Source of the DNA: a virus
Taxonomy: Duplodnaviria > Heunggongvirae > Uroviricota > Caudoviricetes
IMG/VR virus record: IMGVR_UViG_3300045988_154997
Location: 37,871-101,870 of that record
Reading direction: 5' to 3' (one strand)
Length of the DNA: 64,000 nucleotides
A program made the translations under genes and the position numbers. Position 1 is the first letter of the stretch, and each line of letters starts with the position of its first letter. Positions 242 to 18,009 of the stretch are shown one piece after another. The notes under the pieces are model-generated. The model saw only the letters and a list, made by a program, of their open reading frames with translations, was not told the origin of the DNA and made no database searches.

Positions 242-628
242 ATGTCTGATAACAAGATTGAATTTATAGAAAGTCGCTACGCTGCTTTTATCGCAGGGTT
301 GATTGAATCCTCACCTATGAGCCAGGCCCAGATAGCCAAAACAATTGGGTATAAAAACGCCAACAACCTTTCTTTAATTAAAAGCGGCAAAATTCCTTTG
401 CCTATCGATAAGGTTCGTCCGCTGGCGCTGGCACTGGGTATTGAGCCAAGTCGTCTTATGATGATGGTGCTGGAAGAACGCCAACCCGAACTCGCAGCAT
501 TTTTATACAAAGAAGGCACTGCTCCTCTTAACGAGGACGAAAAACAGGTTCTTGCTGCATATAACGAGCGATTCGGTAAAGAGAAAGGCGCATCACAAAA
601 GGTTGTTGAGGCCATAAAGTCTCTATGA
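242..628 (+). CDS. XRE-family HTH regulator (putative)
   Basis: ORF track 236..628 starts at GTG; first ATG at 242. HTH-like stretch SQAQIAKTIGYKNANNLSLIKSG. Converges on and overlaps the recombinase stop by 6 nt. Confidence 0.5.
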   Translation: MSDNKIEFIESRYAAFIAGLIESSPMSQAQIAKTIGYKNANNLSLIKSGKIPLPIDKVRPLALALGIEPSRLMMMVLEERQPELAAFLYKEGTAPLNEDEKQVLAAYNERFGKEKGASQKVVEAIKSL

Positions 629-1726
629 AAAATTTACACGAATAAGCTCTGTTGATAGACGATCTCCCTTAAATTTGTGGTCAATTTCGTCTAAATCCGG
701 TTGCTCTACGATTGATGCGATGTACGTCGAGAAACTTTCTAAGGCGTCTCGCATCTCGTCCATATAATCGTGCCGGTCGTAGACCCGATCTATCCCCTCA
801 AGACTGTGGTTCATGATTTTACGTGATACCTCCTGGCTTATGCCTAATGCTGGGAAGTAACTACGCGCAGTACGGCGCAAATCTCGGGGTGTAAATGGCT
901 CAAGCTCCATCAGTTCTGGTCGTTCCAGAATACGACGTAATGCCTGGGCTATTGCCACTTTAGACATAGGAAGGTCTTTCCCGATTTTTTTATTCGAAGG
1001 CACGAGCCACTGGCTGTCTTTACCATATTCGAACAACTCTTCAATACATGTGCGCATTAATGAGCTTAAAGGCAGAGAATGCTCACGGGCAGATTTGTTC
1101 CTCTTGCCTTGATTCCAAACCCCACGCTTAAGATTGAACTCACTTTTTTTAGCCCGCAGTACTTCGTCAGGTCGTCTTGCGGATACAAGACATAGCCTGG
1201 CCGCCCATTTTGTACCAGCACACACATTGAAGTAGTCCCATATATTCCAGAACACCCATACCTCTGCGTCGGTCAGCTTCCGCTCGCGAGGTGTGGGCTT
1301 TGCGCCACCGGCAACTTTGTTAAGTGACATATCGTTTAACGGTGACACGTCGATCATCCCCTGGAAGGCGCACCAGCTGAGGAACTGCTTCATCAGAGAG
1401 AAAACGCGGCGACCCATAACAATTTTGCCATCCAGTATTAGTGGGTTGACCAGTTGGTTCACCATGAACCTATTAATATCACTTACTTTTACATCGGCAA
1501 TGTGCGGCAAAACATGTATCAAAATACAATGAACAGCGATCTCTGGCCGACGTCTTGTTATCAGCAGAGATAAGCGAGTGAATAACATGAATGCGTCCGA
1601 GAATCTCATGTCATTGCTGACCTGGGAGATCATAACGGCCTGCATTTGAGATGCTCTTTCGAGATACTCAATCGCCTCTTTTGAGGTGTTCTCCGCAGCG
1701 CGTGCTCTGTCAAAGCTATTTTTCAT
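623..1726 (-). CDS. int: tyrosine recombinase / integrase
   Basis: C-terminal catalytic signature: ARRPDEV (Arg box), PRDLRRTARSY (box II-like), MNHSLEGIDRVYDRHDY (HxxxxxxxY with catalytic Tyr). Confidence 0.75.
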   Translation of the reverse strand: MKNSFDRARAAENTSKEAIEYLERASQMQAVMISQVSNDMRFSDAFMLFTRLSLLITRRRPEIAVHCILIHVLPHIADVKVSDINRFMVNQLVNPLILDGKIVMGRRVFSLMKQFLSWCAFQGMIDVSPLNDMSLNKVAGGAKPTPRERKLTDAEVWVFWNIWDYFNVCAGTKWAARLCLVSARRPDEVLRAKKSEFNLKRGVWNQGKRNKSAREHSLPLSSLMRTCIEELFEYGKDSQWLVPSNKKIGKDLPMSKVAIAQALRRILERPELMELEPFTPRDLRRTARSYFPALGISQEVSRKIMNHSLEGIDRVYDRHDYMDEMRDALESFSTYIASIVEQPDLDEIDHKFKGDRLSTELIRVNFS

Positions 1727-3587: not shown

Positions 3588-3651
3588 AAGAATAGCCGCC
3601 TGTCGTGTGATACTATTTACAGAACTAAACTGGCTTTCCACAAGGTGTAAA

Positions 3652-4473
3652 ATGACTATCCTTGAAAATCCTGATGCGAATGTTGAATCTGTTTATAGTC
3701 TTCATCCAACCACGTTGTTTCATTTTACAAAAAACGAAGATGCTTTCTATAGCATATTGGCTGAGAAATATTTTAAACCATTTCTTGCTCGCGAGGAAAT
3801 AAGAGGAGTCGGGGGACGCAGGAGGTTTGCAGTACCAATGGTATCGTTTTGTGACATAAAACTATCACAAATCAGAGATCATAGCGGAAAATATGGAGAA
3901 TTCGGTCTTGGGCTAACTAAGTCTTGGGCGGAAAAGAAAGGTCTACACCCAGTTCTATATATGAATAAGAGTAGTGAAATATTTTCTAAATACAATGCCA
4001 GAATTCGACTTATTAAAAATAAGTTGGTGCCGCTTTGGAAGGCTAGAGGAAATTTAGATACCAAAAACAGAATAGAGTTTGAGAAATTGAAAGCAGAATA
4101 TTCTGATCTATATAATTTACTGCGTTATATGAAAAATTACAGAGGCAAGCTAGAGCGAAAAGATAATAAAACAATAGAGAATTATATATATGCAGACGAG
4201 AAAGAGTGGCGTTATGTGCCAGCTCCTTTTATTGGTGATTTATGGCCTAGTCTGAGTTTGGAGCGTGTTATCACTTCTGATGACAAAGCAAAAATTAGCT
4301 CAAAATTTTCAAAGTTTGGCATTGATTTTGAGTTCAATGATATAAAATATATACTTATACCTAAAGAACAACATATCCAAAAGCTAATTAACTTTCTCTC
4401 AGGTTTAGATGGATTTGAATCTTCAATTATTAGCAAAATTCTGACCATGGATAAAGTAAAGCAAGATTTTTAA
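3652..4473 (+). CDS. hypothetical Abi-like protein (N-terminal LFHFT motif)
   Basis: ORF 3607..4473; first ATG in frame at 3652 (MTILENP). N-terminal LFHFTKNEDAFYSIL recalls the HFT start of AbiGi-type proteins (from memory, unverified). AT-rich. Confidence 0.45.
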   Translation: MTILENPDANVESVYSLHPTTLFHFTKNEDAFYSILAEKYFKPFLAREEIRGVGGRRRFAVPMVSFCDIKLSQIRDHSGKYGEFGLGLTKSWAEKKGLHPVLYMNKSSEIFSKYNARIRLIKNKLVPLWKARGNLDTKNRIEFEKLKAEYSDLYNLLRYMKNYRGKLERKDNKTIENYIYADEKEWRYVPAPFIGDLWPSLSLERVITSDDKAKISSKFSKFGIDFEFNDIKYILIPKEQHIQKLINFLSGLDGFESSIISKILTMDKVKQDF

Positions 4474-4499: not shown

Positions 4500-5711
4500 G
4501 TGTCAATATTTTTAAGCGAAAAGGAAATGCAAAATTGGATAATTGACAAATTATCTGATCAAGATGGATTATATAATTCAATCATCAATATTGATAAATT
4601 AAATGAATTTAATCCGAAAAGACCCGAAGAGAAAAAAATTAAGGAGAGTTATCAGTTTTGTTTAAAGAACATAACATTGTTACATTTAATGACAGATGAT
4701 GAGAATATCTCAGCAACAAAATCTGAGATATTAAGACCTGATGTCGTTGCTTATTCAACAGAGAATGAATCCTTAGTTCTTATTGAGTTAAAAAATTTTT
4801 CAACACCAACAAGGGAAGCTGGAACTGAGCTAGTGGCATATGCTGCGGAACTAAAAAGTTACTTGTCATACTTGTCTGATGGAGATATTACCAATGTACT
4901 TATATCACCTGACTGGCCACCTTTGGTTAGACACTTTATTTTTAATATGATCGTGTGGCAGAAGAAAAACTTTCTATGTTTAGAACCTTGCTATGATTTA
5001 CAAGGTAACGTATCACTTACTCCTTTAGATATTAATAAATTAGTTATTGCGGAAGAAGCACTCAAGTTCTCATTTCGTCATCTTGGCGGGTTTCATATAT
5101 GTTTGTATGATGATGAAATGTATAATCAACCGACTTCCACTTCTCGTTTACATTCGAAATTGAATGTTATTAAAGCCAGCATGGCAAAAATGTCCTCAGA
5201 CGGTGAAAAGACTAATAGCCATGGGTTTGCTATTTTATGTAGAAATTTGAACGAGAGAACTTTAGCACCATATACGATTACTCTAGTTAATGTTTCTGCG
5301 TTTTCTTCCATAGAGCGATACTTTCATTCGCCACAAATATCCAATGCTTCTCAACTCCCTAGAATAGGACAAAAAATTTATGACATTTACACTCATTACC
5401 AACCATCAGGTTTTGGGGCATCAATGTCGAAAATTTACAATTCTGGGAGGGCATATTTAGAAAAAATTAATTGCAAGCCGCGGATCGAGGTTATAGACAC
5501 CTGGGATGTATTGCAAGTACATACACATGCGCCTTATATGGAAATGGTTCATATTGAAACGTGGGGAGTTTTTAAAGAAAAATTGATTGAAGGTCTAAAT
5601 GAATGTTATGAGGATGAATATTACACACCTGATTTTAACGATGTAGATTTTTGCATGGTGTGTATTGAATCCTTAATTGACCAGAATTATGAATTTATAA
5701 AACTTTTTTGA
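4500..5711 (+). CDS. PD-(D/E)xK nuclease-like protein (putative)
   Basis: 403 aa. Motif ILRPDVVAYSTENESLVLIELK fits the PD...(D/E)xK nuclease core. GTG start at 4500 with GGGAG 9 nt upstream; 26 nt after the previous gene. AT-rich. Confidence 0.5.
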   Translation: MSIFLSEKEMQNWIIDKLSDQDGLYNSIINIDKLNEFNPKRPEEKKIKESYQFCLKNITLLHLMTDDENISATKSEILRPDVVAYSTENESLVLIELKNFSTPTREAGTELVAYAAELKSYLSYLSDGDITNVLISPDWPPLVRHFIFNMIVWQKKNFLCLEPCYDLQGNVSLTPLDINKLVIAEEALKFSFRHLGGFHICLYDDEMYNQPTSTSRLHSKLNVIKASMAKMSSDGEKTNSHGFAILCRNLNERTLAPYTITLVNVSAFSSIERYFHSPQISNASQLPRIGQKIYDIYTHYQPSGFGASMSKIYNSGRAYLEKINCKPRIEVIDTWDVLQVHTHAPYMEMVHIETWGVFKEKLIEGLNECYEDEYYTPDFNDVDFCMVCIESLIDQNYEFIKLF

Positions 5712-9195: not shown

Positions 9196-9662
9196 TGTTG
9201 TTTTGCCTCCATATGTTGATCGATTTGCTCATGTGTTTCTTTTGTTGTTTCTTCAATCAACGCCGCATACACGTCAGTGATCGCTGTTTGTGATGTGGCG
9301 CTCTTCTTAACCATGCTATTAATCGTTACACTGTCACGTTTTCGTTTTATAGTTCTGGCTTGTTTATTCCGTTCTTCAACCTCCTTAATGAGTGCGGTCA
9401 TATCTTCGTAATACAGAGATTCTCCTTTACGAATCTCTTCAACCATCATTTTTAACGCCTTGCATTTGCCTGCTTTAATAGCGGTTGCGCACGACTGGAA
9501 AGACGTTCGAGGAAGACGGTTTTCTTTGAAGGCAAGAATGGTGTGCTGGCAAACGGAGTAGCTGCAATATGCCGACTCACCGTTTATCTTTACTTCCTCA
9601 CAACGAAGTGAATAACCGTTATTTCCTGAAATAGAAGGGATTTTTGACAAATCAGCTTTCAC
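9192..9662 (-). CDS. Cys-rich hypothetical protein
   Basis: 156 aa with clustered cysteines (YCSYSVC, SCATAIKAGKC); overlaps the ligase start by 4 nt. Confidence 0.45.
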   Translation of the reverse strand: MKADLSKIPSISGNNGYSLRCEEVKINGESAYCSYSVCQHTILAFKENRLPRTSFQSCATAIKAGKCKALKMMVEEIRKGESLYYEDMTALIKEVEERNKQARTIKRKRDSVTINSMVKKSATSQTAITDVYAALIEETTKETHEQIDQHMEAKQQ

Positions 9663-9684
9663 AATTACCGCCAGAAATAATCTT

Positions 9685-9700
9685 GTGCTTACCTATCATT
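9685..9700. promoter_or_regulatory. dispersed motif copy GTGCTTACCTATCATT
   Basis: Exact 16-mer shared with 3563-3578, in the intergenic region between minus-strand genes. Confidence 0.4.
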
Positions 9701-9729
9701 ATTTGCGTAAAAAACGACACACAGAGAGC

Positions 9730-10512
9730 TTACCAACTTCCCCAGCTAATCATCTTGCGCTGATCGCTTTCTAAGCGATAGGGGGCAAGAAGCTCTGTGA
9801 CATGATTGGTGGCGTATGATTTGGCCTCTTGCTCTATCATCGGTAATTCGTTAGCAATCCTGACCATCTTCCCAGCAAATTCCGCCATTACGCCATCACA
9901 CGCCTTACCCGCATCAACAATGATATGCACAAGATCCAACTGGCTTTTGCACATGTCCCAAAGAGTCGAATATTCGCTCTCCCTGATTAGATTTACAGCA
10001 TCATTAGCCCCTTTATTAATCAAAACCTCCAACAGATTTGTCGGGGTGACGAAATCGGCTTTCAGAGACAATGTTGGTTCAGCTTTTACCGACAGCAAGT
10101 AATCTTCAAAGTTTTGCTTGTCTTCCAGCAAAGCTAAACTACGCATAGCTCGAATTGATTCTCGAATAACGGCTTCAATATGTTCGTCACCTGGAGGACA
10201 GATAATGGTATCTGTATAGATGACTCTGCCATCAAACCACGTCCCAACCTGCACTTTTAGAGTTCGTAAGTTTTCTTTGCGTACAAAAACAACTAATGCA
10301 GAACGTCGTGCATGTGCAGGTTCGCCCCATACGCACAACTTAACCTTCAGATAAGGTAGCCCCGGTAGCGGGATCTCGACCAAACGAGTGGCGATATGAT
10401 CCATTGCCGTATTGACGGCTTTTCCAATGATGTCTAGCCGATTGCTCTCGCTGATTTCTAAACCAGTTTTATCAATGATGTTGCAGGCTAATCTCTTAAT
10501 TTCTTCTTTCAT
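9730..10512 (-). CDS. hypothetical protein
   Basis: 260 aa ORF, no motif recognised. Confidence 0.45.
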   Translation of the reverse strand: MKEEIKRLACNIIDKTGLEISESNRLDIIGKAVNTAMDHIATRLVEIPLPGLPYLKVKLCVWGEPAHARRSALVVFVRKENLRTLKVQVGTWFDGRVIYTDTIICPPGDEHIEAVIRESIRAMRSLALLEDKQNFEDYLLSVKAEPTLSLKADFVTPTNLLEVLINKGANDAVNLIRESEYSTLWDMCKSQLDLVHIIVDAGKACDGVMAEFAGKMVRIANELPMIEQEAKSYATNHVTELLAPYRLESDQRKMISWGSW

Positions 10513-10553
10513 ACCAACTCCTAGCTAACGGATGAAAGTATTCTTACAAAAAC

Positions 10554-10580
10554 TTAAGTATGTATATACTTATCATTTTA
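10554..10580. promoter_or_regulatory. dispersed motif copy TAAGTA-tgtata-TACTTA + TCATTTTA
   Basis: Palindromic motif in the intergenic region upstream of the 9730..10512 gene. Confidence 0.35.
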
Positions 10581-10637
10581 GGTGCAATAGTTCTTTATAC
10601 TAAGATGCCGGGCGTATCCGCAGCCCAGCATTCACCT

Positions 10638-11051
10638 TTAATGAGCTACAGCCTCACTGTTGCACATCTTTCTGTAGACCTGCTTATAACGCTGTAAATC
10701 ATGAGGATCATTAGGTGCCAACGACTTCGATAGGATTTTGTATACCACCCCTTTTGAAAACATGCCCTTTGGCTTCATTTCGAGTTCAACAACATATGAG
10801 TGATAGCCCACGTATGCACCAAAGCCATTTTTGGCGTTTAATTCACCACACACAAAGCCTGTCACACTCCCATCATCATGATCAGTCCTGACAAACTTAT
10901 CTTTCCTAAACATCACCGACGTGGGATCTTTCATATCATCCGCAATTGCCTGTTGGCCCAGAGTAATAGCCTTCTCGTCTGTAGGCTTACACCCAACTAA
11001 TGCAAACAAAGACAATAAAGCACCTGTTAAAATCAACTTCTTTTTGCTCAT
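10638..11051 (-). CDS. lipoprotein (hypothetical)
   Basis: Signal peptide with lipobox MSKKKLILTGALLSLFALVGC. Confidence 0.55.
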   Translation of the reverse strand: MSKKKLILTGALLSLFALVGCKPTDEKAITLGQQAIADDMKDPTSVMFRKDKFVRTDHDDGSVTGFVCGELNAKNGFGAYVGYHSYVVELEMKPKGMFSKGVVYKILSKSLAPNDPHDLQRYKQVYRKMCNSEAVAH

Positions 11052-11284
11052 TTTGACTTCCCTTTATTTATATTTATCGTAGGTATTAGTTAACCAAAAC
11101 ACGAGCCGTGTCACAATAATTCCATAGCTCATTATTTCCATCGGTGATTAATATCACATCAACTTTACAGTTCATAAATTAAATTATCAAAGCTGACAGA
11201 TTAACTAAATTTAAGTACCCTTTTCGCACACTTGACGCTTGCCGCGTCTAAACTGTTCATCCTATATCAACAGAACAAAAAAAC

Positions 11285-12430
11285 ATGAAATACATAAAAT
11301 CTTCATCGTTGCTGGCATTAACTTTGCTTTTTAACTCTGGATTCGTTAACGCAGACAATAAACAAACGCTGATAGAAGCCGCTACCGCAGGGGATACCGC
11401 AGCACAAAGTGAGTTAGGTACAAATTATTTTGATGGTGTCAATGGTTTTGATAAGGATGTAGTTGAGGCCAAGAAGTGGATTGATCTAGCTGCAGAAAAG
11501 GGAGATAAAGTAGCATATTATGCACTTGGAGTTATGTACACATTTGGCGAGGGTGTAGATAAAGACCTAAATAAAGCTGTTGAGTACTACAAACTTGCGG
11601 GGGATGCTCGTGAAGGTAGAGCCTACAACAATCTTGGTGCTATTTATCAAAAGGGGATGCTTGGTAAAGTAGATCATGCACTCGCCATTAAATACTTCAA
11701 ACTAGCCTCTGATGCCGGGTATGTTAAAGCAACTTCAGTTCTTGGGGCGTATTACCAATATGGTAAAGGCGTTAAAAAGAATTATAAAAAGGCTTTTACT
11801 TATTACAAAAAGGCGGCAGACCAAGGCAGTTCAGAAGCTATGATAGGATTAGGAATACTATACGATGATGGGTTAGGCGTTAAACGCAATGATGCAGAAG
11901 CAGTTAAGTGGTATAAAAAGGCAGCGGAACTTGGAAACGCCGACGCCATAACCAATCTTGGCATTATGTATGAGAATGGGGAAGGTGTAAAAAAGGACTA
12001 TAAAAAAGCAGCCGACCTTTATCAGACTGCTTGCGATAAAGGAGAAAAAAGAGGCTGCGATTACATTGCAGAACTGAAAGAAAGCGGCAAATATCGAGCG
12101 CCGGCTTCCAAAGCCAAAACAAAATCCGCCACCCAGCGACTTATTGCTAAATCCATTGATAAGGGCGTTAACGCTACATTTACCTGGCAGGGTGATGATG
12201 CTACCTTCACCGCTAATGATGGCAAAGTTGACTGCACCTTCCTGAAGGATTTTTCAGAGAAAGGAGGCAATCTGGCTACCTCGTTTGTTTGCACCGACAA
12301 CGTTCAAATCATCCTGAAGCAATTCAGAGATACCAAGAATGCCTACCTCGCGGTAATGACTGACAACTTCAACACAGAAGTTAAATCATTTTCGGTCAAT
12401 GTGTACGTGACTAATACTGGTTCAAACTAA
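11285..12430 (+). CDS. secreted Sel1-repeat (TPR-like) protein
   Basis: N-terminal signal peptide; several Sel1-type repeats (AxxGxxxAxxxLGxMYxxGxGVxKDxxKAxxWYKKAAxxG). Encoded opposite to its neighbours. Confidence 0.75.
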   Translation: MKYIKSSSLLALTLLFNSGFVNADNKQTLIEAATAGDTAAQSELGTNYFDGVNGFDKDVVEAKKWIDLAAEKGDKVAYYALGVMYTFGEGVDKDLNKAVEYYKLAGDAREGRAYNNLGAIYQKGMLGKVDHALAIKYFKLASDAGYVKATSVLGAYYQYGKGVKKNYKKAFTYYKKAADQGSSEAMIGLGILYDDGLGVKRNDAEAVKWYKKAAELGNADAITNLGIMYENGEGVKKDYKKAADLYQTACDKGEKRGCDYIAELKESGKYRAPASKAKTKSATQRLIAKSIDKGVNATFTWQGDDATFTANDGKVDCTFLKDFSEKGGNLATSFVCTDNVQIILKQFRDTKNAYLAVMTDNFNTEVKSFSVNVYVTNTGSN

Positions 12431-13675
12431 TGCTGCTATGCCTTTTACCTTGCTTAAAAGTTCAAGCTGTCGTGAGTAAGGTTTTGCGCAATAGTAGGCT
12501 TTGATAATCTGCCCCGGGGTCGCATCGCCGGGGTCGAGTCCTTCCTCGCCCAAACATGCAATTTTCACATTAAGACCGATACTGGTCAGTCGCCTGGCTG
12601 CGGCCATAGTGTTTCGTATAGCTTGCTTTTCACTATCCCACATCATGATCACATTACGTAATCCACGCGCCTTGAGCGTCAGGAACGCGCCCAACTGATC
12701 TTCTGCATCCTGAGTGGTGTTACCAGATAGATGCATCCCGAACGTTCCTATTGGTTCCACGTAATCGCGTAATGTTTCTTCGTCAAAAATAGCTCGTTTG
12801 ACCCCCATAACATCGAACGCCCCCTCACAGACAACTACAGTCTGTTTGCCGACTGCATTGTGGCCGTTGTAGAGAAACTTACCTGAAGCTGGAAGCTGCA
12901 TAGGAAAGAGGTAGCGGCGTTCTGCTGTACCGGTAATGTCTCGTCCTTGAAATGTCTTCATTACCCCATCCAGATCGTAAACCGGTATCAGTATTCGCAT
13001 ATCGAAAATCTGTCCTTTAACCTGATCTGTATACGGATCTACATAAGCGTGCTTGCCTTCGACGCAGTATCGTAGGTCAAAATACTTTGCCATTTCAGGC
13101 GATATATTTCGTTCAACCAGATAGTCTGGAAGATGGCCATCTATAGGAAGATCGTAATGACGAGGGAGTGCAACTGGTCCCTCTAACTCGACTGTGCTTG
13201 CAAGCACTATCTCTTCTTTCTTTGGTGCCCACCCCTGGGAAAGAAGAGCGTTCTGCACATATTCCTCGAACTGTCGTCGTGATTTACCGCTGTAGTGCTT
13301 GAGGAAGACCAGCTTATTGAACTGAATCTCTTCGGGATGATCACCAGCGAAGCATTTACCGACGCCACTGGTCAGATTGAAATATACCTTCCAGTTGGAG
13401 CTGCCGCATACCGGACACTCCTTGATATTCACTTCACGACCGCGAGTACTCACGCCTCCACGTCGATAAACGATACCTTCAGTATCCAACCATTGTTCAA
13501 AATCTAATTCGGTAATTAGCTCTTTCAGCTCGCTCACGATAATTCCACTTTTAACAGGCAATATTGTGACCAACCTAAATGTTGATATAACATAAAGGCT
13601 CATGTGTTTTTCTTTTGTGGTTTGGCAAAAGAAAAGTTGTTTCACCAATGAATCAAGCGTGGAGGTGTTCTCCAC
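12422..13675 (-). CDS. DNA primase (zinc-binding + TOPRIM)
   Basis: CPVCGSSNWKVY...GKCF zinc-ribbon; TOPRIM-like VVVCEGAFDVMGV. Start uncertain (GTG at 13675; internal candidates at 13606 and 13537). Confidence 0.7.
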   Translation of the reverse strand: MENTSTLDSLVKQLFFCQTTKEKHMSLYVISTFRLVTILPVKSGIIVSELKELITELDFEQWLDTEGIVYRRGGVSTRGREVNIKECPVCGSSNWKVYFNLTSGVGKCFAGDHPEEIQFNKLVFLKHYSGKSRRQFEEYVQNALLSQGWAPKKEEIVLASTVELEGPVALPRHYDLPIDGHLPDYLVERNISPEMAKYFDLRYCVEGKHAYVDPYTDQVKGQIFDMRILIPVYDLDGVMKTFQGRDITGTAERRYLFPMQLPASGKFLYNGHNAVGKQTVVVCEGAFDVMGVKRAIFDEETLRDYVEPIGTFGMHLSGNTTQDAEDQLGAFLTLKARGLRNVIMMWDSEKQAIRNTMAAARRLTSIGLNVKIACLGEEGLDPGDATPGQIIKAYYCAKPYSRQLELLSKVKGIAALV

Positions 13676-13684
13676 GCTTATTTT

Positions 13685-15025
13685 TTAGGTAACGTCTAAG
13701 ATTCGCTCAATGAAGCGCATTTGTTCGAGGTTTTGTTTAACGCGAATGCTGATCCCTCCCTGCTGGTTACGCGAACCAGCAAAGTAGAGACGAGCCTCTC
13801 CTTTCGCTTCTTCTTCTTCGGTTTTGTTGATCGTTATTACCAGGTCAGCAATACGTACTTTTTCGATGTTGTCGGCAGCGTGCATCATTGTGGCAACTTC
13901 TGACGCGCCACCTTCACGGTTTGTTTGCGACGCCGTGATACCAGCAACGTTATGCTTGTCATAAAGAGCACGTAAATCGGTGTAGATACTACGAATGTTG
14001 GCGCGATCATCACGAAGGTCATAACTGGCACGCATCAAATCTGCGTAGTCGACAACAACCATGTCAGGCACCATGCCGTTGGCTTTCATGCTGTTAAGCA
14101 TACGGTCCAGATCTGCCGGTGACATACTTCCTGACGGACGCTCAACCACCCACAAACTACCAATCCCCTTCGTGGCTCCCAACTCTGCCAACTTACGATG
14201 AACCTCATCGCGCCGTTCCACCAGCTTGGACATTTCTGTCTCCGACAATCTTGCATCAAAACGGTCGGATAAAATGGTGGTGTGAACCTCCAGCGAGAGA
14301 TACAGAACATTGTAGCCAGCAAGCGTTGCGTTTATGGAAAACTCACCCATTGCGGTCGATTTGCCGGATTTAGCGAACCCCATGAAGAGCACCATTTCAC
14401 GCTTCGCCCAGCCTTTTTGGTACAGCAACCTATCGAGCAGAGGGAGTCCAGTTGTAATGCTGTTTGGCACATACTCCTCTGAAGCCTCATATTCACGCGC
14501 TTTCAATCGCTCACTTGCGGAGGTGTAGTAGTCATAGATTCCGGTCGCTTCGTTCGAGCCTATCTGCTGAACCTTGGCCATGATTGCCATCGCCCCCTGA
14601 AAGTCGCCCTTCTCTTTCAGTTCAGCAGCTTTAATCAGAGCATCATCAAACGCTACACTTTTTGCGAATGTGGATACCTGGTCAACCATGTACGAGGTAT
14701 CAGACAATTTTTCTGCAAGGATGCGCTTAAACGCAGCAACAACATCCGGGAAGAGTTCCTCACGGATGGTCTTATCGCGTTTCGCGCGCTTAAGCATATC
14801 CAGAATCGCAGATGAAGAAGGCGCGCTCTTGTACATACGGTAATAGCCCGAAACCATATTAACCAATATGGCATTGGCCGCATTGGCAAATTGGCTAGGC
14901 ACAACCAGATCTCCCGCACGAGTAAGAAACTCGTGATCACGACAAAAATATGCCGTCAGTCTGTTCTGGAAATCTTCATCAAACTCTTCGGACAGCCCGC
15001 GTCCTGTATGGCAAAGTTCGGTCAT
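13685..15025 (-). CDS. replicative DNA helicase (DnaB-like)
   Basis: Walker A GFAKSGKST, Walker B VVVDYADLM, ASQTNREG; RecA-like C-terminal domain typical of the DnaB/gp41 family. Confidence 0.85.
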   Translation of the reverse strand: MTELCHTGRGLSEEFDEDFQNRLTAYFCRDHEFLTRAGDLVVPSQFANAANAILVNMVSGYYRMYKSAPSSSAILDMLKRAKRDKTIREELFPDVVAAFKRILAEKLSDTSYMVDQVSTFAKSVAFDDALIKAAELKEKGDFQGAMAIMAKVQQIGSNEATGIYDYYTSASERLKAREYEASEEYVPNSITTGLPLLDRLLYQKGWAKREMVLFMGFAKSGKSTAMGEFSINATLAGYNVLYLSLEVHTTILSDRFDARLSETEMSKLVERRDEVHRKLAELGATKGIGSLWVVERPSGSMSPADLDRMLNSMKANGMVPDMVVVDYADLMRASYDLRDDRANIRSIYTDLRALYDKHNVAGITASQTNREGGASEVATMMHAADNIEKVRIADLVITINKTEEEEAKGEARLYFAGSRNQQGGISIRVKQNLEQMRFIERILDVT

Positions 15026-16006: not shown

Positions 16007-17203
16007 TTAAACATCTTTTAGAAAGCCTGGAAACCAATGTTTCATGATATACCTAAAATGTGCTCTAGTTGGTTCAAAAACCTGTCTAGATACCAGCGCT
16101 CCATCAGGATGATTCTGAACAGACTGTTCTTTTTCCATATCGTAAAAATTATGAGTTATCTCTGGGGGGAAGAAAATATTTCTGTCCAGTGGCACTGTCG
16201 CAAAAGGATTGTAGTAAATATGAAGGCCGTCAAAGTGCGTCTCTTCATGAGCAGTGGAATGGCAAACTACAATATCCGCACCAGTGACTTCGTTATTTAA
16301 AAAATGCCGATATGTAGTGATGAAATGATCAGGACCTATCCTTTGTGTGTGCTTTCCCTCGTTTTTCATCCCTTCATTGGCGATGAAATCATTCACATCA
16401 ATGGCTCGATATCGTGTTGACCTTACATATCTACCGATACCGCTTTGAACCACGGCTTTTCCAAAAGTGCCGGTGGTGGAGAAAATAACCGCACTTATTT
16501 CTTTATATGAGTCGTTAGTAAATATACCTAATGGAATTTCAACGTCTTCATTCTTTTTGATTGAGGTAACTTTAGTTTGGCTGCCAGTCACCAAATTTCT
16601 GGTGGTAGGTTCCTCAATGCCAAACAACACTCGATTGATGATTGTGTTATTTTGAGACAATGATAAATCGGAGTCAAAGGGTGCAAGCGCCAGAACAAAC
16701 GGCTTATTAACTACATGAGACATCGTAGAGTACGGGAATTTTTTGCCATTAACTCCTGTAAAAAGATCATGTTTGTCTTTGATTTTTCCGATTAATTTTA
16801 GCGTTGATTGATGTTTGAATTTTGATTCGCTAAAAAGAGCACCTGCAGGTGGATTATGTGGCCGATCTGATATCACAGCTTCGACGTTAAACTGGTAGCC
16901 TGACGGTGTAGTAACACAGAAATCGGGACTGTCTTTTGTGTAGTCGACAGAATAATCGAGACGAATAAACATTTCGTTCAGATACAATTCCCATAAGGCG
17001 GAATTGAAGGTTGTCTGAAACTCTTTAACGAATTTAGTCTGCTCACCGCTACGCTCCAGTAACCCACGCCCCCACGACTGTATCACTTCTCTTACTGGAG
17101 CATATGTATTATCTTGATAAATCTGTTTAAAAGATTCGTGCAGCTTGTTTTTTGCTATTTTGGTTGAGAACAAATCCATTATTAGCCTCACTAACCAGTT
17201 CAA
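16007..17203 (-). CDS. hypothetical protein (398 aa), partner of the DUF2971-like gene
   Basis: Long ORF, moderately AT-rich, no motif recognised; immediately downstream of the DUF2971-like gene on the same strand. Confidence 0.45.
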   Translation of the reverse strand: MNWLVRLIMDLFSTKIAKNKLHESFKQIYQDNTYAPVREVIQSWGRGLLERSGEQTKFVKEFQTTFNSALWELYLNEMFIRLDYSVDYTKDSPDFCVTTPSGYQFNVEAVISDRPHNPPAGALFSESKFKHQSTLKLIGKIKDKHDLFTGVNGKKFPYSTMSHVVNKPFVLALAPFDSDLSLSQNNTIINRVLFGIEEPTTRNLVTGSQTKVTSIKKNEDVEIPLGIFTNDSYKEISAVIFSTTGTFGKAVVQSGIGRYVRSTRYRAIDVNDFIANEGMKNEGKHTQRIGPDHFITTYRHFLNNEVTGADIVVCHSTAHEETHFDGLHIYYNPFATVPLDRNIFFPPEITHNFYDMEKEQSVQNHPDGALVSRQVFEPTRAHFRYIMKHWFPGFLKDV

Positions 17204-17245: not shown

Positions 17246-17965
17246 CTACTTCAGCTTTTCTTTGACAAGAAGATAACCATCATCAGGTGTACTCATTTTG
17301 TAAACCTCGATGCTCGTGTCTAGCTGTGTCCGGGCATATTCTTCTACTTCAGGAGAAACGTTATACCCAAGAATGATCTCTCTAATATATTTCTTATCAA
17401 ATGCCTGAGCGCCTATTTTTTTAGTAATAACCCTTTGTTCTTCCTCATATTTCCAGCATTCGTGCTTGTAGAAAAAGAGCTTATCAAAAAGTACCTTAAA
17501 CTCATCTGTAACTTCATCGAACACGGGAACAGAAGGTATATATTTCACATTATCAAAGCTGTGATACCCCTCAATAGAGGTAACAAAATCATCATCAAAG
17601 CCTATGCAGAAACCTTTATGCGACACTGAGTAATGTGACCACATCAAGATGTTATCTTCGTTTGGTGACAAGCACACCACACCAAAAGCCCCTAATGATT
17701 CTTTCCGCAAATCCACAGCCAACGATTTTGCAGCTTCAGGAGCTACAGCATCCCAGTCTTCAAAGGAAAAATCCTTACATCCATTGTCTTCAAAGTGTTT
17801 CCGGCGCTCCACTTCTGTACCTCCCATCGTTATCGAAACTTTGAACTCTGATGGGTCGTTGAATGAAGAAGGTGCGCTAGCAGAGATAGTGCCGTCCTCT
17901 ACAAACCGTTTGAGGTTACGTAACACTTTTTGCGAATCTTCACTTCCAATATATTTGTAGAGCAT
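17246..17965 (-). CDS. DUF2971-like protein
   Basis: First ATG gives MLYKYIGSED...SSFNDPSEF...NILMWSHYSVSHKGFCIGFD; the LYKY / FNDP / MWSHY pattern matches my recollection of DUF2971. Track start 18004 is TTG. Confidence 0.45.
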   Translation of the reverse strand: MLYKYIGSEDSQKVLRNLKRFVEDGTISASAPSSFNDPSEFKVSITMGGTEVERRKHFEDNGCKDFSFEDWDAVAPEAAKSLAVDLRKESLGAFGVVCLSPNEDNILMWSHYSVSHKGFCIGFDDDFVTSIEGYHSFDNVKYIPSVPVFDEVTDEFKVLFDKLFFYKHECWKYEEEQRVITKKIGAQAFDKKYIREIILGYNVSPEVEEYARTQLDTSIEVYKMSTPDDGYLLVKEKLK

Positions 17966-18009
17966 TAGGGAACCTATAGAAAGAGGTGCCAAGCAGCACC
18001 TCAATAAAA

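What the first reader, a model, noticed from the sequence alone, without database searches (positions are those of the whole stretch)
10638..12430. Secreted Sel1-repeat protein and a lipoprotein as morons in the replication region
A plus-strand gene for a signal-peptide-bearing Sel1/TPR-like repeat protein (11285-12430) is inserted against the orientation of all neighbours and converges on the primase gene with an 9-nt overlap. Next to it is a minus-strand lipoprotein gene. Sel1-repeat secreted proteins are more typical of bacterial host-interaction factors than of phage cores, suggesting lysogenic-conversion-type cargo.
Basis: partly seen in the sequence, partly recalled or inferred. Interest (0 to 1): 0.45.

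Follow-up and report, generated by a model that had tools for sequence, protein, structure and literature searches.

The report
Exported Sel1-repeat cargo gene in phage-plasmid
A 112-kb E. coli phage-plasmid carries, between its primase and ligase genes, a dispensable cargo slot with a lipoprotein gene and a backwards-facing gene for an exported Sel1-repeat protein ending in a rare beta-barrel; the function of both is still unknown.

Summary
The element is an SSU5-like E. coli phage-plasmid, identical over the 2.1 kb tested to plasmids NZ_CP073997.1 and NZ_CP104116.1.

The Sel1 gene (11285-12430, +) is a true accessory cassette. It is absent from viable relatives (PhiR41_1, Cyrano, SSU5). It occurs in 62 of 253 E. 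coli genomes that carry this primase, always on plasmids. A conserved promoter-like motif travels with it. It recurs in unrelated prophages, is under purifying selection, and is sometimes broken by IS1 or deletion.

The protein has a signal peptide, seven Sel1-like repeats and an 8-stranded beta-barrel without Pfam or solved-structure relatives. The barrel is more conserved than the repeats. Remote stand-alone secreted homologues exist in virulent Stephanstirmvirinae phages.

The lipoprotein (10638-11051, -) is a different case. It is co-oriented and sits at the same position in Salmonella, Klebsiella, Cronobacter and Enterobacter phage-plasmids. It is therefore an older in-line accessory gene, and its family also occurs as cargo in P2-like and sipho-prophages.

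Function is untested. I favour an action in the periplasm (exclusion or envelope protection) over a host-virulence role, with low confidence. The result is moderately interesting: a known kind of element (a phage moron) with an undescribed domain architecture.

The parts
10638..11051 (-). Lipoprotein gene, 137 aa. Lipobox LVGC (Cys21), Lys at +2, conserved Cys68 and Cys130. Member of phrog_2320 (function unknown).
   Evidence: phrog_2320, E 2e-39; 219 homologues, all unnamed or 'lipoprotein'; no Pfam or PDB match; dN/dS 0.04-0.11; same position in phage-plasmids of other genera.
11052..11284 (.). AT-rich (33% GC) divergent control region between the lipoprotein and Sel1 genes. The part from about 11097 onward belongs to the Sel1 cassette.
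   Evidence: The conserved 'TTAACTAAT(T)ACCT' upstream of the lipoprotein start in lipoprotein-only plasmids marks the left edge of the insertion.
11193..11221 (+). Conserved promoter-like element CTGACA-N17-TACCCT, 64 nt upstream of the Sel1 ATG. It travels with the gene.
   Evidence: alignment; a single match in the window, 0.02 expected by chance; exactly one match in each of 23 loci, and upstream of the Sel1 homologue wherever its position was checked. These include the divergent alleles L054/L055, Escherichia whittamii L032 and Pseudenterobacter L005. Function as a promoter is inferred, not shown.
11162..11190 (-). Weak sigma-70-like site (TTGATA-17-TAAAGT) facing the lipoprotein gene, inside the inserted DNA. 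It might restore transcription of the downstream genes.
   Evidence: 9 of 12 consensus positions. Such sites are barely enriched over shuffles (8 found, 5.1 expected). Speculative.
11285..11350 (+). Sel1 protein residues 1-22: Sec signal peptide.
   Evidence: Sequence. An N-terminal hydrophobic segment is present in the full-length homologues. pLDDT is below 50 here, as expected for a signal peptide.
11351..12085 (+). Residues 23-267: seven Sel1-like helix pairs forming a solenoid. This part varies between alleles, which carry 6, 7 or 8 repeats. Cys250 and Cys258 lie in the last repeat.
   Evidence: 14 helices, pLDDT above 90; Foldseek to 4bwr, 1ouv, 8sxq, E about 1e-15; allele alignment; dS saturated; dN/dS about 0.1-0.3.
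12086..12136 (+). Residues 268-284: Lys/Ser/Ala-rich flexible linker.
   Evidence: pLDDT below 50.
12137..12412 (+). Residues 285-376: 8-stranded antiparallel beta-domain with invariant Cys317 and Cys336. This is the most conserved part of the protein. No Pfam family and no solved-structure relative.
   Evidence: model of the domain alone, pLDDT about 90. (no Pfam at E up to 10). (no PDB match below E 0.036). (8 cluster representatives among 1.84 billion proteins). (5 of 185,579 species genomes). (remote phage homologues).
12422..12430 (.). 9-nt convergent overlap of the Sel1 and primase 3' ends. It is conserved in all allele classes and in Enterobacter.
11097..12421 (+). The Sel1 cassette: about 1.33 kb present here and absent from phage-plasmids where the primase gene is followed directly by the lipoprotein gene.
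   Evidence: compared with L007, L009, L011 and L014.
10574..12421 (.). The whole slot content (lipoprotein plus Sel1). Phage PhiR41_1 has about 15-39 bp in its place.
12422..13675 (-). Flank: DnaG-type primase gene (longest ORF; the true start is probably at 13537 or 13603).
9730..10512 (-). Flank: conserved 260-aa gene of unknown function (phrog_4248), the other border of the slot.

Best explanation
SHOWN. The window is part of an SSU5-like phage-plasmid of E. coli. The gap between the primase gene and the next gene of the replication-gene block (a 260-aa protein, followed by a 156-aa protein and the ligase) is a variable cargo slot. I saw five states across relatives:
- lipoprotein only;
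- Sel1 plus lipoprotein (this window);
- Sel1 only;
- empty;
- in SSU5 itself, a different backwards-facing 321-aa gene.

The Sel1 gene is a self-contained cassette of about 1.33 kb. It carries a conserved promoter-like motif and recurs in at least three other phage backgrounds. It is under purifying selection yet dispensable for the element. Its product has a signal peptide, a seven-repeat Sel1-like solenoid whose repeat array is swapped between alleles, and a near-invariant 8-stranded beta-barrel with a conserved cysteine pair.

INFERRED (about 0.35 for this specific mechanism). The protein is made from its own promoter while the element sits as a plasmid, when the convergent primase operon is quiet, and is exported by Sec to the periplasm. 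There the barrel, whose stand-alone relatives are secreted proteins of virulent coliphages, docks on a conserved envelope component or ligand. The exchangeable repeat array captures a variable protein partner. The outcome would be protection of the lysogen's envelope against something arriving from outside: a superinfecting phage's entry machinery or wall-degrading enzyme, or a periplasm-acting toxin. The outer-membrane lipoprotein next door plausibly has a separate envelope or exclusion role of its own.
For: Identity of the element: over the 2.1 kb tested it is 100% identical to plasmids NZ_CP073997.1 and NZ_CP104116.1, and its relatives include pECOH89, PhiR41_1, Cyrano and SSU5.

Slot states.

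Prevalence: the primase is in 253, Sel1 in 62 and the lipoprotein in 59 of 5426 complete E. coli genomes. None of the Sel1 or lipoprotein matches is chromosomal.

Decay: IS1 insertion (L013) and a deletion scar removing window 10720-12291 (L016).

A real gene under selection: dN/dS is 0.04-0.29 in the repeat and barrel regions.

Mosaic alleles: 6-, 7- and 8-repeat arrays share the last repeat and the barrel, with breakpoints near 11954-11984.

Own control element: the motif occurs once in the window (0.02 expected) and once in each of 23 loci, upstream of the homologue wherever checked, including divergent and chromosomal copies.

Mobility as a cassette: the same roughly 1.8-kb unit sits in different prophage flanks, after tail-fibre genes, and between the tail tube and tail chaperone genes of a myovirus.

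Export: the signal peptide and conserved cysteine pairs are seen in the sequence.

Fold.

The barrel as a phage periplasmic module: Foldseek against BFVD gives E 5.6e-5, TM 0.61/0.68, to a 106-aa protein of coliphage Mt1B1_P17, and E 9e-4 to a protein annotated 'putative lysozyme inhibitor'. hhalign gives 93.6% probability, E 2e-7, to ESCO5 gp174. That protein has its own signal peptide, and its two cysteines align with Cys317 and Cys336. The gp174 family is found in 126 phage records, nearly all large (130-160 kb) Escherichia and Klebsiella phage genomes, with Phapecoctavirus and Justusliebigvirus among them.

Neighbourhood: PD-T7-5, PDC-S31 and AbiGi defence candidates lie in the same plasmid-type region.
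Against: Nothing here tests function, localisation or expression. The promoter-like motif has a poor -10 hexamer (3 of 6) and failed the standard scan. No terminator and no clear ribosome-binding site were found. The barrel has no significant solved-structure neighbour, and no Pfam family, MliC included, matched it. The 'lysozyme inhibitor' label on one BFVD neighbour is an unverified annotation. The link to the virulent-phage protein rests on one profile comparison over 55 columns and on a predicted-structure match; I did not verify that the two point to the same protein. PADLOC has no model matching either protein. Repeat-array differences show purifying selection, not positive selection, so there is no arms-race signature beyond allele swapping. 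Proximity to defence genes is weak evidence.
Confidence: 0.6

Rival explanations
1. Orphan immunity protein. The periplasmic repeat protein neutralises a periplasm-acting antibacterial toxin (a T6SS phospholipase or VgrG-type effector, or a bacteriocin) delivered by competitors. This would give the phage-plasmid's host a competitive edge.
For: Sel1-like repeat proteins are proven T6SS immunity proteins. Sel1E protects against VgrG4 in Klebsiella (PMC7108748, read). PA5086, PA5087 and PA5088 appear among the fold matches at E 5e-6 to 8e-5. The signal peptide places the protein in the right compartment. The Pseudenterobacter chromosomal homologue lies among orphan CDI toxin fragments and IS elements. 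The swappable repeat array would suit changing toxin specificity.
Against: No effector gene lies next to it in the window or in any phage context seen. The known immunity proteins are far weaker matches than generic repeat proteins such as EsiB and HcpC. None of them has the C-terminal barrel, which is the most conserved part here. Stand-alone barrel homologues in virulent phages are hard to explain as toxin immunity. CDI immunity proteins are normally cytoplasmic (from general knowledge).
Confidence: 0.2
2. Host-interaction or virulence factor. The protein is surface-exposed or released and binds a host (animal) protein, as EsiB binds secretory IgA or as the Helicobacter Hcp and Legionella LpnE/EnhC proteins act.
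For: EsiB (c5321, 4bwr) is the best Foldseek match and the second-best by sequence; the best by sequence is an uncharacterised Oxalobacter formigenes Sel1 protein, 6ok3. For EsiB: phmmer E 9e-65; Foldseek E 7.5e-16, 37% identity over 246 columns. HcpC, LpnE and LceB follow. Carriers come from guts of humans, poultry, pigs and cattle.
Against: The similarity is confined to the generic repeat scaffold. No secretion route beyond the periplasm is evident. The conserved barrel, not the repeats, is the family's signature, and it has relatives in virulent phages. The family also occurs in Pantoea and Leclercia, which are not gut specialists. No experimental data exist.
Confidence: 0.12
3. Regulator of the host's own cell-wall enzymes or of an envelope stress pathway. 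It would be a periplasmic adaptor that binds a lytic transglycosylase, a sensor kinase or a similar protein, as EnhC binds Slt and ExoR binds ExoS. This would tune the envelope for the benefit of the element, for example in lysis timing.
For: NCBIfam gives weak repeat-level matches to ExoR, MotX and AlgK, all periplasmic adaptors. Weak fold neighbours of the barrel include RseB/MucB and LolA-type half-barrels. The EnhC and ExoR precedents are from general knowledge, not tested here.
Against: All these matches are far below the family cut-offs (59-79 bits against cut-offs of 330-700). The PDB fold matches are not significant (E at least 0.036, TM at most 0.5).
Confidence: 0.1
4. The two genes are a functional pair acquired together: an outer-membrane lipoprotein plus a periplasmic partner forming one system.
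For: In E. coli they nearly always co-occur (59 against 62 of 253 genomes). They are transcribed divergently from one 233-bp region.
Against: They occur apart. Lipoprotein only: Salmonella, Klebsiella, Cronobacter, Enterobacter. Sel1 only: L021, L026, L044-46, L054/55. Each family moves alone in other phages. I did not intersect the genome lists one by one.
Confidence: 0.08

Closest known systems
Phage morons / lysogenic-conversion genes (the concept of Juhala, Hendrix and colleagues; examples lom and bor of lambda)
   Same: An extra gene between two genes that are adjacent in related phages. It has its own apparent promoter, lower GC than its surroundings, is dispensable, encodes an exported product, and the same cassette is found in unrelated phage genomes at classic moron sites (after tail-fibre genes, inside tail modules).
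   Different: No terminator was found. The gene ends inside the 3' end of the primase gene in a conserved 9-nt convergent overlap. The carrier is a phage-plasmid, and the site lies in the replication-gene block, not the late region. Expression in lysogeny is untested.
Bacterial Sel1-like repeat (SLR) proteins: EsiB/c5321 (4bwr), HcpC (1ouv), LpnE (6deh), LceB (8sxq)
   Same: A signal peptide followed by a tandem Sel1 solenoid. Sequence identity 30-38% over about 245 residues; Foldseek E about 1e-15.
   Different: None of these has the C-terminal 8-stranded barrel. Here the repeats are the variable part and the barrel the conserved part. This protein is encoded by a phage-plasmid.
T6SS immunity proteins with Sel1 repeats: PA5086-PA5088 (Tli5 type) and Klebsiella Sel1E
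   Same: A Sel1-like repeat fold used to neutralise an incoming protein; the PA5086-88 proteins are described as periplasmic, while the localisation of Sel1E is unresolved (PMC7108748). This is the nearest functional precedent for a protective role.
   Different: Much weaker similarity (E about 1e-5). No adjacent effector gene. No barrel domain in those proteins.
Small secreted proteins of Stephanstirmvirinae coliphages (ESCO5 gp174 family); MliC/PliC-type lysozyme inhibitors as a looser comparison
   Same: gp174 has a signal peptide and a beta-rich domain of about 100 aa with two cysteines that align with Cys317 and Cys336 (hhalign 93.6%, E 2e-7). A BFVD neighbour is labelled 'putative lysozyme inhibitor'. 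MliC/PliC are also 8-stranded periplasmic barrels (from general knowledge).
   Different: gp174 is stand-alone, uncharacterised and belongs to a virulent phage. No Pfam family (MliC included) matched at E up to 10. No MliC or PliC structure is among the top 50 PDB fold matches. The MliC loop motifs, as I recall them, are not visible in the sequence.
Receptor-blocking / superinfection-exclusion lipoproteins (T5 Llp, phi80/N15 Cor), as a comparison for the 137-aa lipoprotein
   Same: A small phage-encoded lipoprotein predicted to sit in the outer membrane, dispensable, found in several phage types including inside a tail-gene cluster and at the ogr-int end of a P2-like phage.
   Different: No detectable sequence relationship: only function-unknown PHROG families match. 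The mature protein is larger (116 aa). In this element it is not next to a receptor-binding protein gene. Its function is untested.

Membership tests
Sel1-like repeat family (Pfam PF08238) | Tandem repeats of 36-44 aa scoring above the Pfam gathering threshold | tested here: met
   178.2 bits against a cut-off of 30.7, 6 stretches.
Sel1-like repeat family (Pfam PF08238) | Alpha/alpha solenoid fold superimposable on solved Sel1-like repeat proteins | tested here: met
   The AlphaFold2 model has 14 helices with pLDDT above 90. Foldseek to 4bwr, 6ok3, 8sxq and 1ouv: E 1e-15 to 1e-14, rmsd 2-3 A.
Phage moron | Lies between two genes that are adjacent in related phages | tested here: met
   The primase gene is directly followed by the lipoprotein gene in L007-L012 and L014, and by the 260-aa gene in PhiR41_1.
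Phage moron | Own promoter | tested here: inconclusive
   The motif CTGACA-N17-TAMCCT occurs once in the window and once in each of 23 loci, upstream of the homologue wherever checked. Its -10 hexamer is weak, it failed the standard promoter scan, and there are no transcript data.
Phage moron | Own transcription terminator | tested here: not met
   No convincing terminator follows the stop codon. The gene ends inside the primase gene. Only a weak hairpin lies at 12589-12604.
Phage moron | Base composition different from the surrounding genome | tested here: met
   ORF 41.8% GC (repeat part 40.6%), upstream region 33%, window 45.6%, primase 46.3%. The deviation is modest.
Phage moron | Expressed from the repressed prophage and beneficial to the lysogen | not testable with these tools
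   Needs RNA-seq and phenotyping.
T6SS Sel1-repeat immunity proteins (PA5086-88, Sel1E) | Encoded next to the cognate effector gene | tested here: not met
   The neighbours are the primase, the lipoprotein and replication genes. No effector is seen in the other phage contexts.
T6SS Sel1-repeat immunity proteins (PA5086-88, Sel1E) | Binds and neutralises a toxin | not testable with these tools
   -
MliC/PliC lysozyme inhibitors (Pfam PF09864) | Match to the family profile | tested here: not met
   No Pfam family at E up to 10 for residues 267-381. No PDB sequence match with the domain profile.
MliC/PliC lysozyme inhibitors (Pfam PF09864) | 8-stranded beta-barrel close to solved MliC/PliC structures | tested here: inconclusive
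   The model has 8 antiparallel strands. The top 50 PDB matches (E at least 0.036) contain no MliC or PliC. One BFVD neighbour is annotated 'putative lysozyme inhibitor' at E 9e-4.
Bacterial lipoproteins (for ORF 10638-11051) | Signal peptide ending in a lipobox [LVI][ASTVI][GAS]C | tested here: met
   The sequence ...LFALVGC at Cys21. Cys21 is invariant in 47 homologues. Eight family members match Pfam LPAM_1.
Cor / Llp exclusion lipoproteins | Sequence homology to Cor or Llp | tested here: not met
   hmmscan against PHROGs returns only function-unknown families. No Pfam or PDB match.
Known anti-phage defence systems (PADLOC 2.0) | Match to a defence-protein model | tested here: not met
   Sel1 gives only a spurious 22-bit match to PtuA over 40 residues. 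The lipoprotein gives none.

The most novel reading that the evidence does not exclude
The protein founds an undescribed class of phage-encoded periplasmic exclusion factors. A conserved beta-barrel, shared with secreted proteins of virulent Stephanstirmvirinae phages, would dock on or inhibit a conserved envelope or cell-wall-degrading activity. An exchangeable Sel1-repeat array would set which incoming phage or toxin protein is captured. This would resemble T4 Spackle but be modular and spread as a moron among phage-plasmids and prophages of Enterobacterales.
Probability: 0.15. Interest if true: 0.7.

Novelty: new variant of a known kind. Interest (0 to 1): 0.4.

Why it matters
SSU5-like phage-plasmids are present in about 5% of complete E. 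coli genomes (253 of 5426) and are mostly studied as carriers of resistance genes. This work maps a defined cargo slot in their replication region with at least five alternative contents. It also shows that one content is a mobile cassette shared with unrelated prophages. The cassette encodes an exported protein whose most conserved part is a domain absent from Pfam and from solved structures. That domain is found in only 5 of 185,579 species genomes, and has remote relatives as a secreted protein in many virulent coliphages.

If the domain proves to act on phage entry or on wall-degrading enzymes, it would add a periplasmic layer to the defence and exclusion functions already seen on these elements (PD-T7-5, PDC-S31 and AbiGi in this window). 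It would also assign a function to PHROG family 8741 and to the ESCO5 gp174 protein family. If it has no such role, it is one more uncharacterised moron.

Tried and rejected
- Mobile-element scars around the insert. No flanking direct or inverted repeats were found, so there is no evidence for transposition. Gain and loss look like homologous or illegitimate recombination.
- Conserved partner genes next to chromosomal or prophage homologues. None is shared between contexts. A 185-aa membrane protein precedes the gene only in Pantoea.
- Diversifying selection on the repeats. dN/dS is 0.09-0.29, so purifying. The divergence comes from allele replacement, not rapid evolution.
- RNA elements. No Rfam match in 9500-13800 at E up to 1. 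The hairpin after the lipoprotein stop has no U-tract and a z-score of -1.9.
- Assigning the barrel by solved structures. Foldseek against PDB gave nothing below E 0.036 (weak lipocalin-like, LolA and RseB hits). The profile search against PDB sequences gave nothing.
- Assigning the lipoprotein. There is no Pfam, NCBIfam, PADLOC or PDB match, even with a 47-sequence profile.
- Literature. Four full-text searches found no paper that discusses this gene in SSU5-like elements. The large phage-plasmid survey preprint does not mention Sel1, tetratricopeptide or lipoprotein.
- SSU5_041, the alternative slot content. No Pfam or PADLOC assignment.
- 'Pseudogene or chance ORF' was rejected: full-length conservation, a PHROG match of 702 bits and purifying selection.
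- 'Core replication component' was rejected because of absence from viable phages.
Full report
**1. What is in the sequence**

The ORF list reproduces the finding exactly.
- A 381-aa ORF lies on the plus strand at 11285-12430.
- A 137-aa ORF lies on the minus strand at 10638-11051.
- A primase ORF lies on the minus strand and ends at 12422, so the two 3' ends overlap by 9 nt.
- All other genes from about 7.2 to 19 kb are on the minus strand.

The 381-aa protein matches Pfam Sel1 at E 1e-53 in six stretches. It starts with a typical Sec signal peptide (MKYIK, a hydrophobic core, then VNA|D). The 137-aa protein has the lipobox LVGC with Lys at +2. By the classical +2 rule (general knowledge) that predicts an outer-membrane lipoprotein. 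The flanking genes are a DnaG-type primase, a DnaB-type helicase and an ATP-dependent ligase.

**2. What the element is**

The 2.1-kb region is 100% identical to E. coli plasmids NZ_CP073997.1 and NZ_CP104116.1 (about 112.6 kb). It matches 217 plasmid records, nearly all Escherichia and non-mobilizable, among them pECOH89. The flanks are 94-97% identical to the phages PhiR41_1, Cyrano and CMS-2020a, and 80% to Salmonella phage SSU5. The window is therefore part of an SSU5-like phage-plasmid. Published work describes this group as having a conserved phage core plus a large shell and cloud of variable genes (PMC7969092, read).

**3. The slot**

In phage PhiR41_1, window 10574-12421 is replaced by a few tens of bases. 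There the primase stop is followed directly by the upstream region of the 260-aa gene.

In phage-plasmids of Salmonella (including serovar Typhi), Klebsiella aerogenes, Cronobacter sakazakii and Enterobacter hormaechei, the lipoprotein gene (47-66% identical) follows the primase gene after 32-55 bp. It has the same orientation as the operon, and there is no Sel1 gene.

Alignment to those plasmids places the Sel1 insertion at about 11097-12421, some 1.33 kb.

Other states exist:
- Sel1 without the lipoprotein: L021, L022, L026, L044-46, and the more divergent L054/L055.
- Sel1 interrupted by IS1B in E. fergusonii.
- A deletion scar that keeps only the last 82 bp of the lipoprotein gene and the last 139 bp of the Sel1 gene.
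- In SSU5 itself, an unrelated 321-aa gene that also faces backwards and ends 1 nt from the primase gene.

Prevalence among 5426 complete E. coli genomes:

| Feature | Genomes with a match | Location |
|---|---|---|
| SSU5-type primase | 253 | 254 of 257 places on plasmids |
| Sel1 gene | 62 (45 near full length at high identity) | all on plasmids |
| Lipoprotein gene | 59 | all on plasmids |

**4. The Sel1 gene behaves as an autonomous, mobile but selected cassette**

(a) Alleles differ in repeat number. E. coli elements carry alleles with 6, 7 or 8 repeats (335/345, 381 and 417 aa). These share an almost identical last repeat, linker and C-terminal domain. Their 5' two-thirds are so different that synonymous sites are saturated. 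The breakpoints lie near 11954-11984.

(b) dN/dS is 0.04-0.29 in the repeat and barrel regions, so the gene is functional.

(c) A promoter-like motif accompanies the gene. The 29-nt motif CTGACA-N17-TA(A/C)CCT lies 64 nt upstream of the ATG (11193-11221). It occurs once in the 64-kb window against 0.02 expected by chance. It also occurs exactly once in each of 23 fetched loci. In every locus where I checked its position it lies on the gene's strand, 60-100 nt upstream of the homologue. Many of these loci were not used to define the motif: the 54%-identical alleles L054/L055, Escherichia whittamii, and Pseudenterobacter. I read it as the gene's own, probably activator-dependent, promoter. This is an inference.

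(d) Homologues at 42-53% identity sit in quite different phages:
- after the tail-tip and tail-fibre genes at the end of a sipho-prophage;
- as the same roughly 1.8-kb cassette in another prophage flank in Leclercia, where the copy is frameshifted;
- between the tail tube and tail chaperone genes of a contractile-tail phage.

(e) In E. whittamii, an intact copy with a fragment of the phage-plasmid primase sits beside IS3 remnants between the chromosomal genes yciB and yciA/tonB (these gene names are my reading of the translated ORFs, not a tool result). The cargo gene survived while the replication gene did not.

(f) No terminator was found, and the 9-nt overlap with the primase gene is conserved in all alleles and in Enterobacter.

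Because the gene converges on the primase/helicase operon, I infer that it is expressed when that operon is quiet, that is, in the plasmid state.

**5. The protein**

AlphaFold2 gives:
- a disordered signal peptide;
- 14 helices (seven Sel1-like pairs, residues 23-267, pLDDT above 90);
- a flexible linker;
- an 8-stranded antiparallel beta-domain (residues 285-376).

Modelled on its own, the beta-domain reaches pLDDT of about 90. The repeat part matches EsiB, HcpC, LpnE, LceB and Oxalobacter Sel1 proteins, and more weakly the T6SS immunity proteins PA5086-88.

The C-terminal domain is the most conserved part of the family.
- It has an invariant cysteine pair, Cys317 and Cys336.
- It has no Pfam family at E up to 10.
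- It has no solved-structure relative by sequence or by fold; the best PDB match is E 0.036, with weak lipocalin-like and LolA/RseB-like barrels.
- An exhaustive HMMER search of 1.84 billion cluster representatives found 8 proteins. The 7 real matches are Sel1 proteins or fragments of them; the eighth, at E 6e-6, looks spurious.
- Among 185,579 species genomes only 5 carry it, all Enterobacterales.

Against predicted viral structures the domain does find neighbours. The best is a 106-aa protein of coliphage Mt1B1_P17 (E 5.6e-5, TM 0.61/0.68). Fourth is a Serratia-phage protein annotated 'putative lysozyme inhibitor' (E 9e-4).

Independently, weak tblastn hits led to ESCO5 gp174. This 119-aa protein has its own signal peptide. 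It aligns to the domain profile with 93.6% probability (E 2e-7), and both cysteines are in register. Its family occurs in 126 phage records, nearly all large (130-160 kb) Escherichia and Klebsiella phage genomes, with Phapecoctavirus and Justusliebigvirus among them, and every annotated match is a 'hypothetical protein'.

**6. The lipoprotein**

It belongs to phrog_2320 (function unknown). It has 219 detectable relatives in Enterobacterales. It is under strong purifying selection, with dN/dS 0.04-0.11. It has no Pfam or PDB relative even with a 47-sequence profile.

Outside phage-plasmids the family sits at typical cargo sites:
- between ogr and int of P2-like phages;
- between the tail chaperone and tape-measure genes of an E. 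coli sipho-prophage.

Its N-terminal half is similar to parts of phage proteins annotated with peptidoglycan-binding domains. It is dispensable, being absent from PhiR41_1, Cyrano and SSU5. In this lineage, however, it is an old in-line gene and not a recent insertion.

**7. How it most likely works**

The following steps are shown:
- cargo status;
- mobility as a cassette;
- purifying selection;
- the domain architecture;
- a sequence consistent with export.

The following steps are inferred:
- expression from its own promoter in the plasmid state;
- a periplasmic location;
- the barrel acting as the conserved working or docking module, with the repeat array as an exchangeable protein-capture module.

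The barrel also exists as a secreted protein in virulent phages. Such phages gain nothing from host colonisation traits. For that reason I weight a phage-related function in the envelope (about 0.35) above the alternatives. Such a function could be exclusion of superinfecting phages or protection of the wall and envelope. T4 Spackle inhibiting the gp5 tail lysozyme is the conceptual precedent; that comparison rests on general knowledge.

| Reading | Weight |
|---|---|
| Phage-related envelope function | about 0.35 |
| Orphan toxin immunity | about 0.2 |
| Host-interaction factor of the EsiB type | about 0.12 |
| Modulator of host envelope enzymes | about 0.1 |

None of these is tested.

**8. 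Comparison with what is known, and novelty**

As a genetic element this is a moron. It meets the position and composition criteria, plausibly the promoter criterion, and fails the terminator criterion. The protein is a clear member of the Sel1-like repeat family.

It is not demonstrably a member of the T6SS immunity proteins, of the MliC/PliC inhibitors, or of any PADLOC defence family.

The combination of a Sel1 solenoid with this barrel is, as far as I could find, undescribed. So are the barrel family itself, the link to Stephanstirmvirinae gp174 and the five-state slot. No paper in the searched library mentions them.

The gene is already annotated in public records, but only as 'tetratricopeptide repeat protein' or 'sel1 repeat family protein', and it sits in PHROGs as a function-unknown family.

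**9. Verdict**

I rate it a new variant of a known kind, with interest 0.4.

Noticed in passing
window 16007-17203 (-) and 17246-18004 (-): Two candidate anti-phage defence genes, PD-T7-5 (PADLOC E 1.5e-139) and PDC-S31/DUF2971 (E 2e-38), sit between the 249-aa gene and parB/parA. Related phage-plasmids hold other genes in the same slot: a DUF2971 protein, a KAP NTPase matching PDC-S49, and unknown 324-aa and 351-aa proteins. This is a second variable slot.
   Followed up: partly
window 3607-4473 (+), 4500-5711 (+), 623-1726 (-): An AbiGi homologue (PADLOC E 5e-47) is followed by a 403-aa ORF with no match, possibly its AbiGii partner. A tyrosine-recombinase gene lies nearby.
   Followed up: partly
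L059 2494-3459 (Salmonella phage SSU5, gene SSU5_041): SSU5 fills the same primase-proximal slot with an unrelated 321-aa cytoplasmic protein. That gene is also reverse-oriented and ends 1 nt from the primase gene. It has no Pfam or PADLOC match.
   Followed up: partly
L060 2408-2767 (Escherichia phage ESCO5 gp174): A 119-aa secreted protein conserved in 126 phage records, nearly all large (130-160 kb) Escherichia and Klebsiella phage genomes that include Phapecoctavirus and Justusliebigvirus, is a remote homologue of the Sel1 protein's C-terminal barrel. It lies in a run of small genes upstream of an nrdA-like gene and a helicase gene. Its function is unknown.
   Followed up: partly
L032 5626-9014 (Escherichia whittamii chromosome): IS3-family remnants, an intact Sel1 homologue with its promoter-like motif, and a 146-aa fragment of the phage-plasmid primase lie between yciB and yciA/tonB (gene names from my reading of the ORFs). 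A piece of an SSU5-like element was captured in the chromosome with the cargo gene preserved.
   Followed up: partly
L018 8047-8982: At the same prophage end, 0.8 kb downstream of the Sel1 homologue, is a second and different Sel1-repeat protein. It is 311 aa, has no signal peptide, and has a Cys-rich segment and C-terminal hydrophobic segments.
   Followed up: no
window 12422-13675: The start of the primase gene is ambiguous. The longest ORF is 417 aa from a GTG, while relatives are annotated as 371, 379 or 393 aa.
   Followed up: no
L034 7072-8363 (Leclercia adecarboxylata NCTC13032): The Sel1 homologue in this prophage is split into three ORFs by frameshifts. It is either a pseudogene or an assembly error.
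   Followed up: no
L053 7110-8351: The myovirus-borne homologue has a possible lipobox (LSVGC) in its signal peptide, so some family members may be lipid-anchored and not soluble.
   Followed up: no
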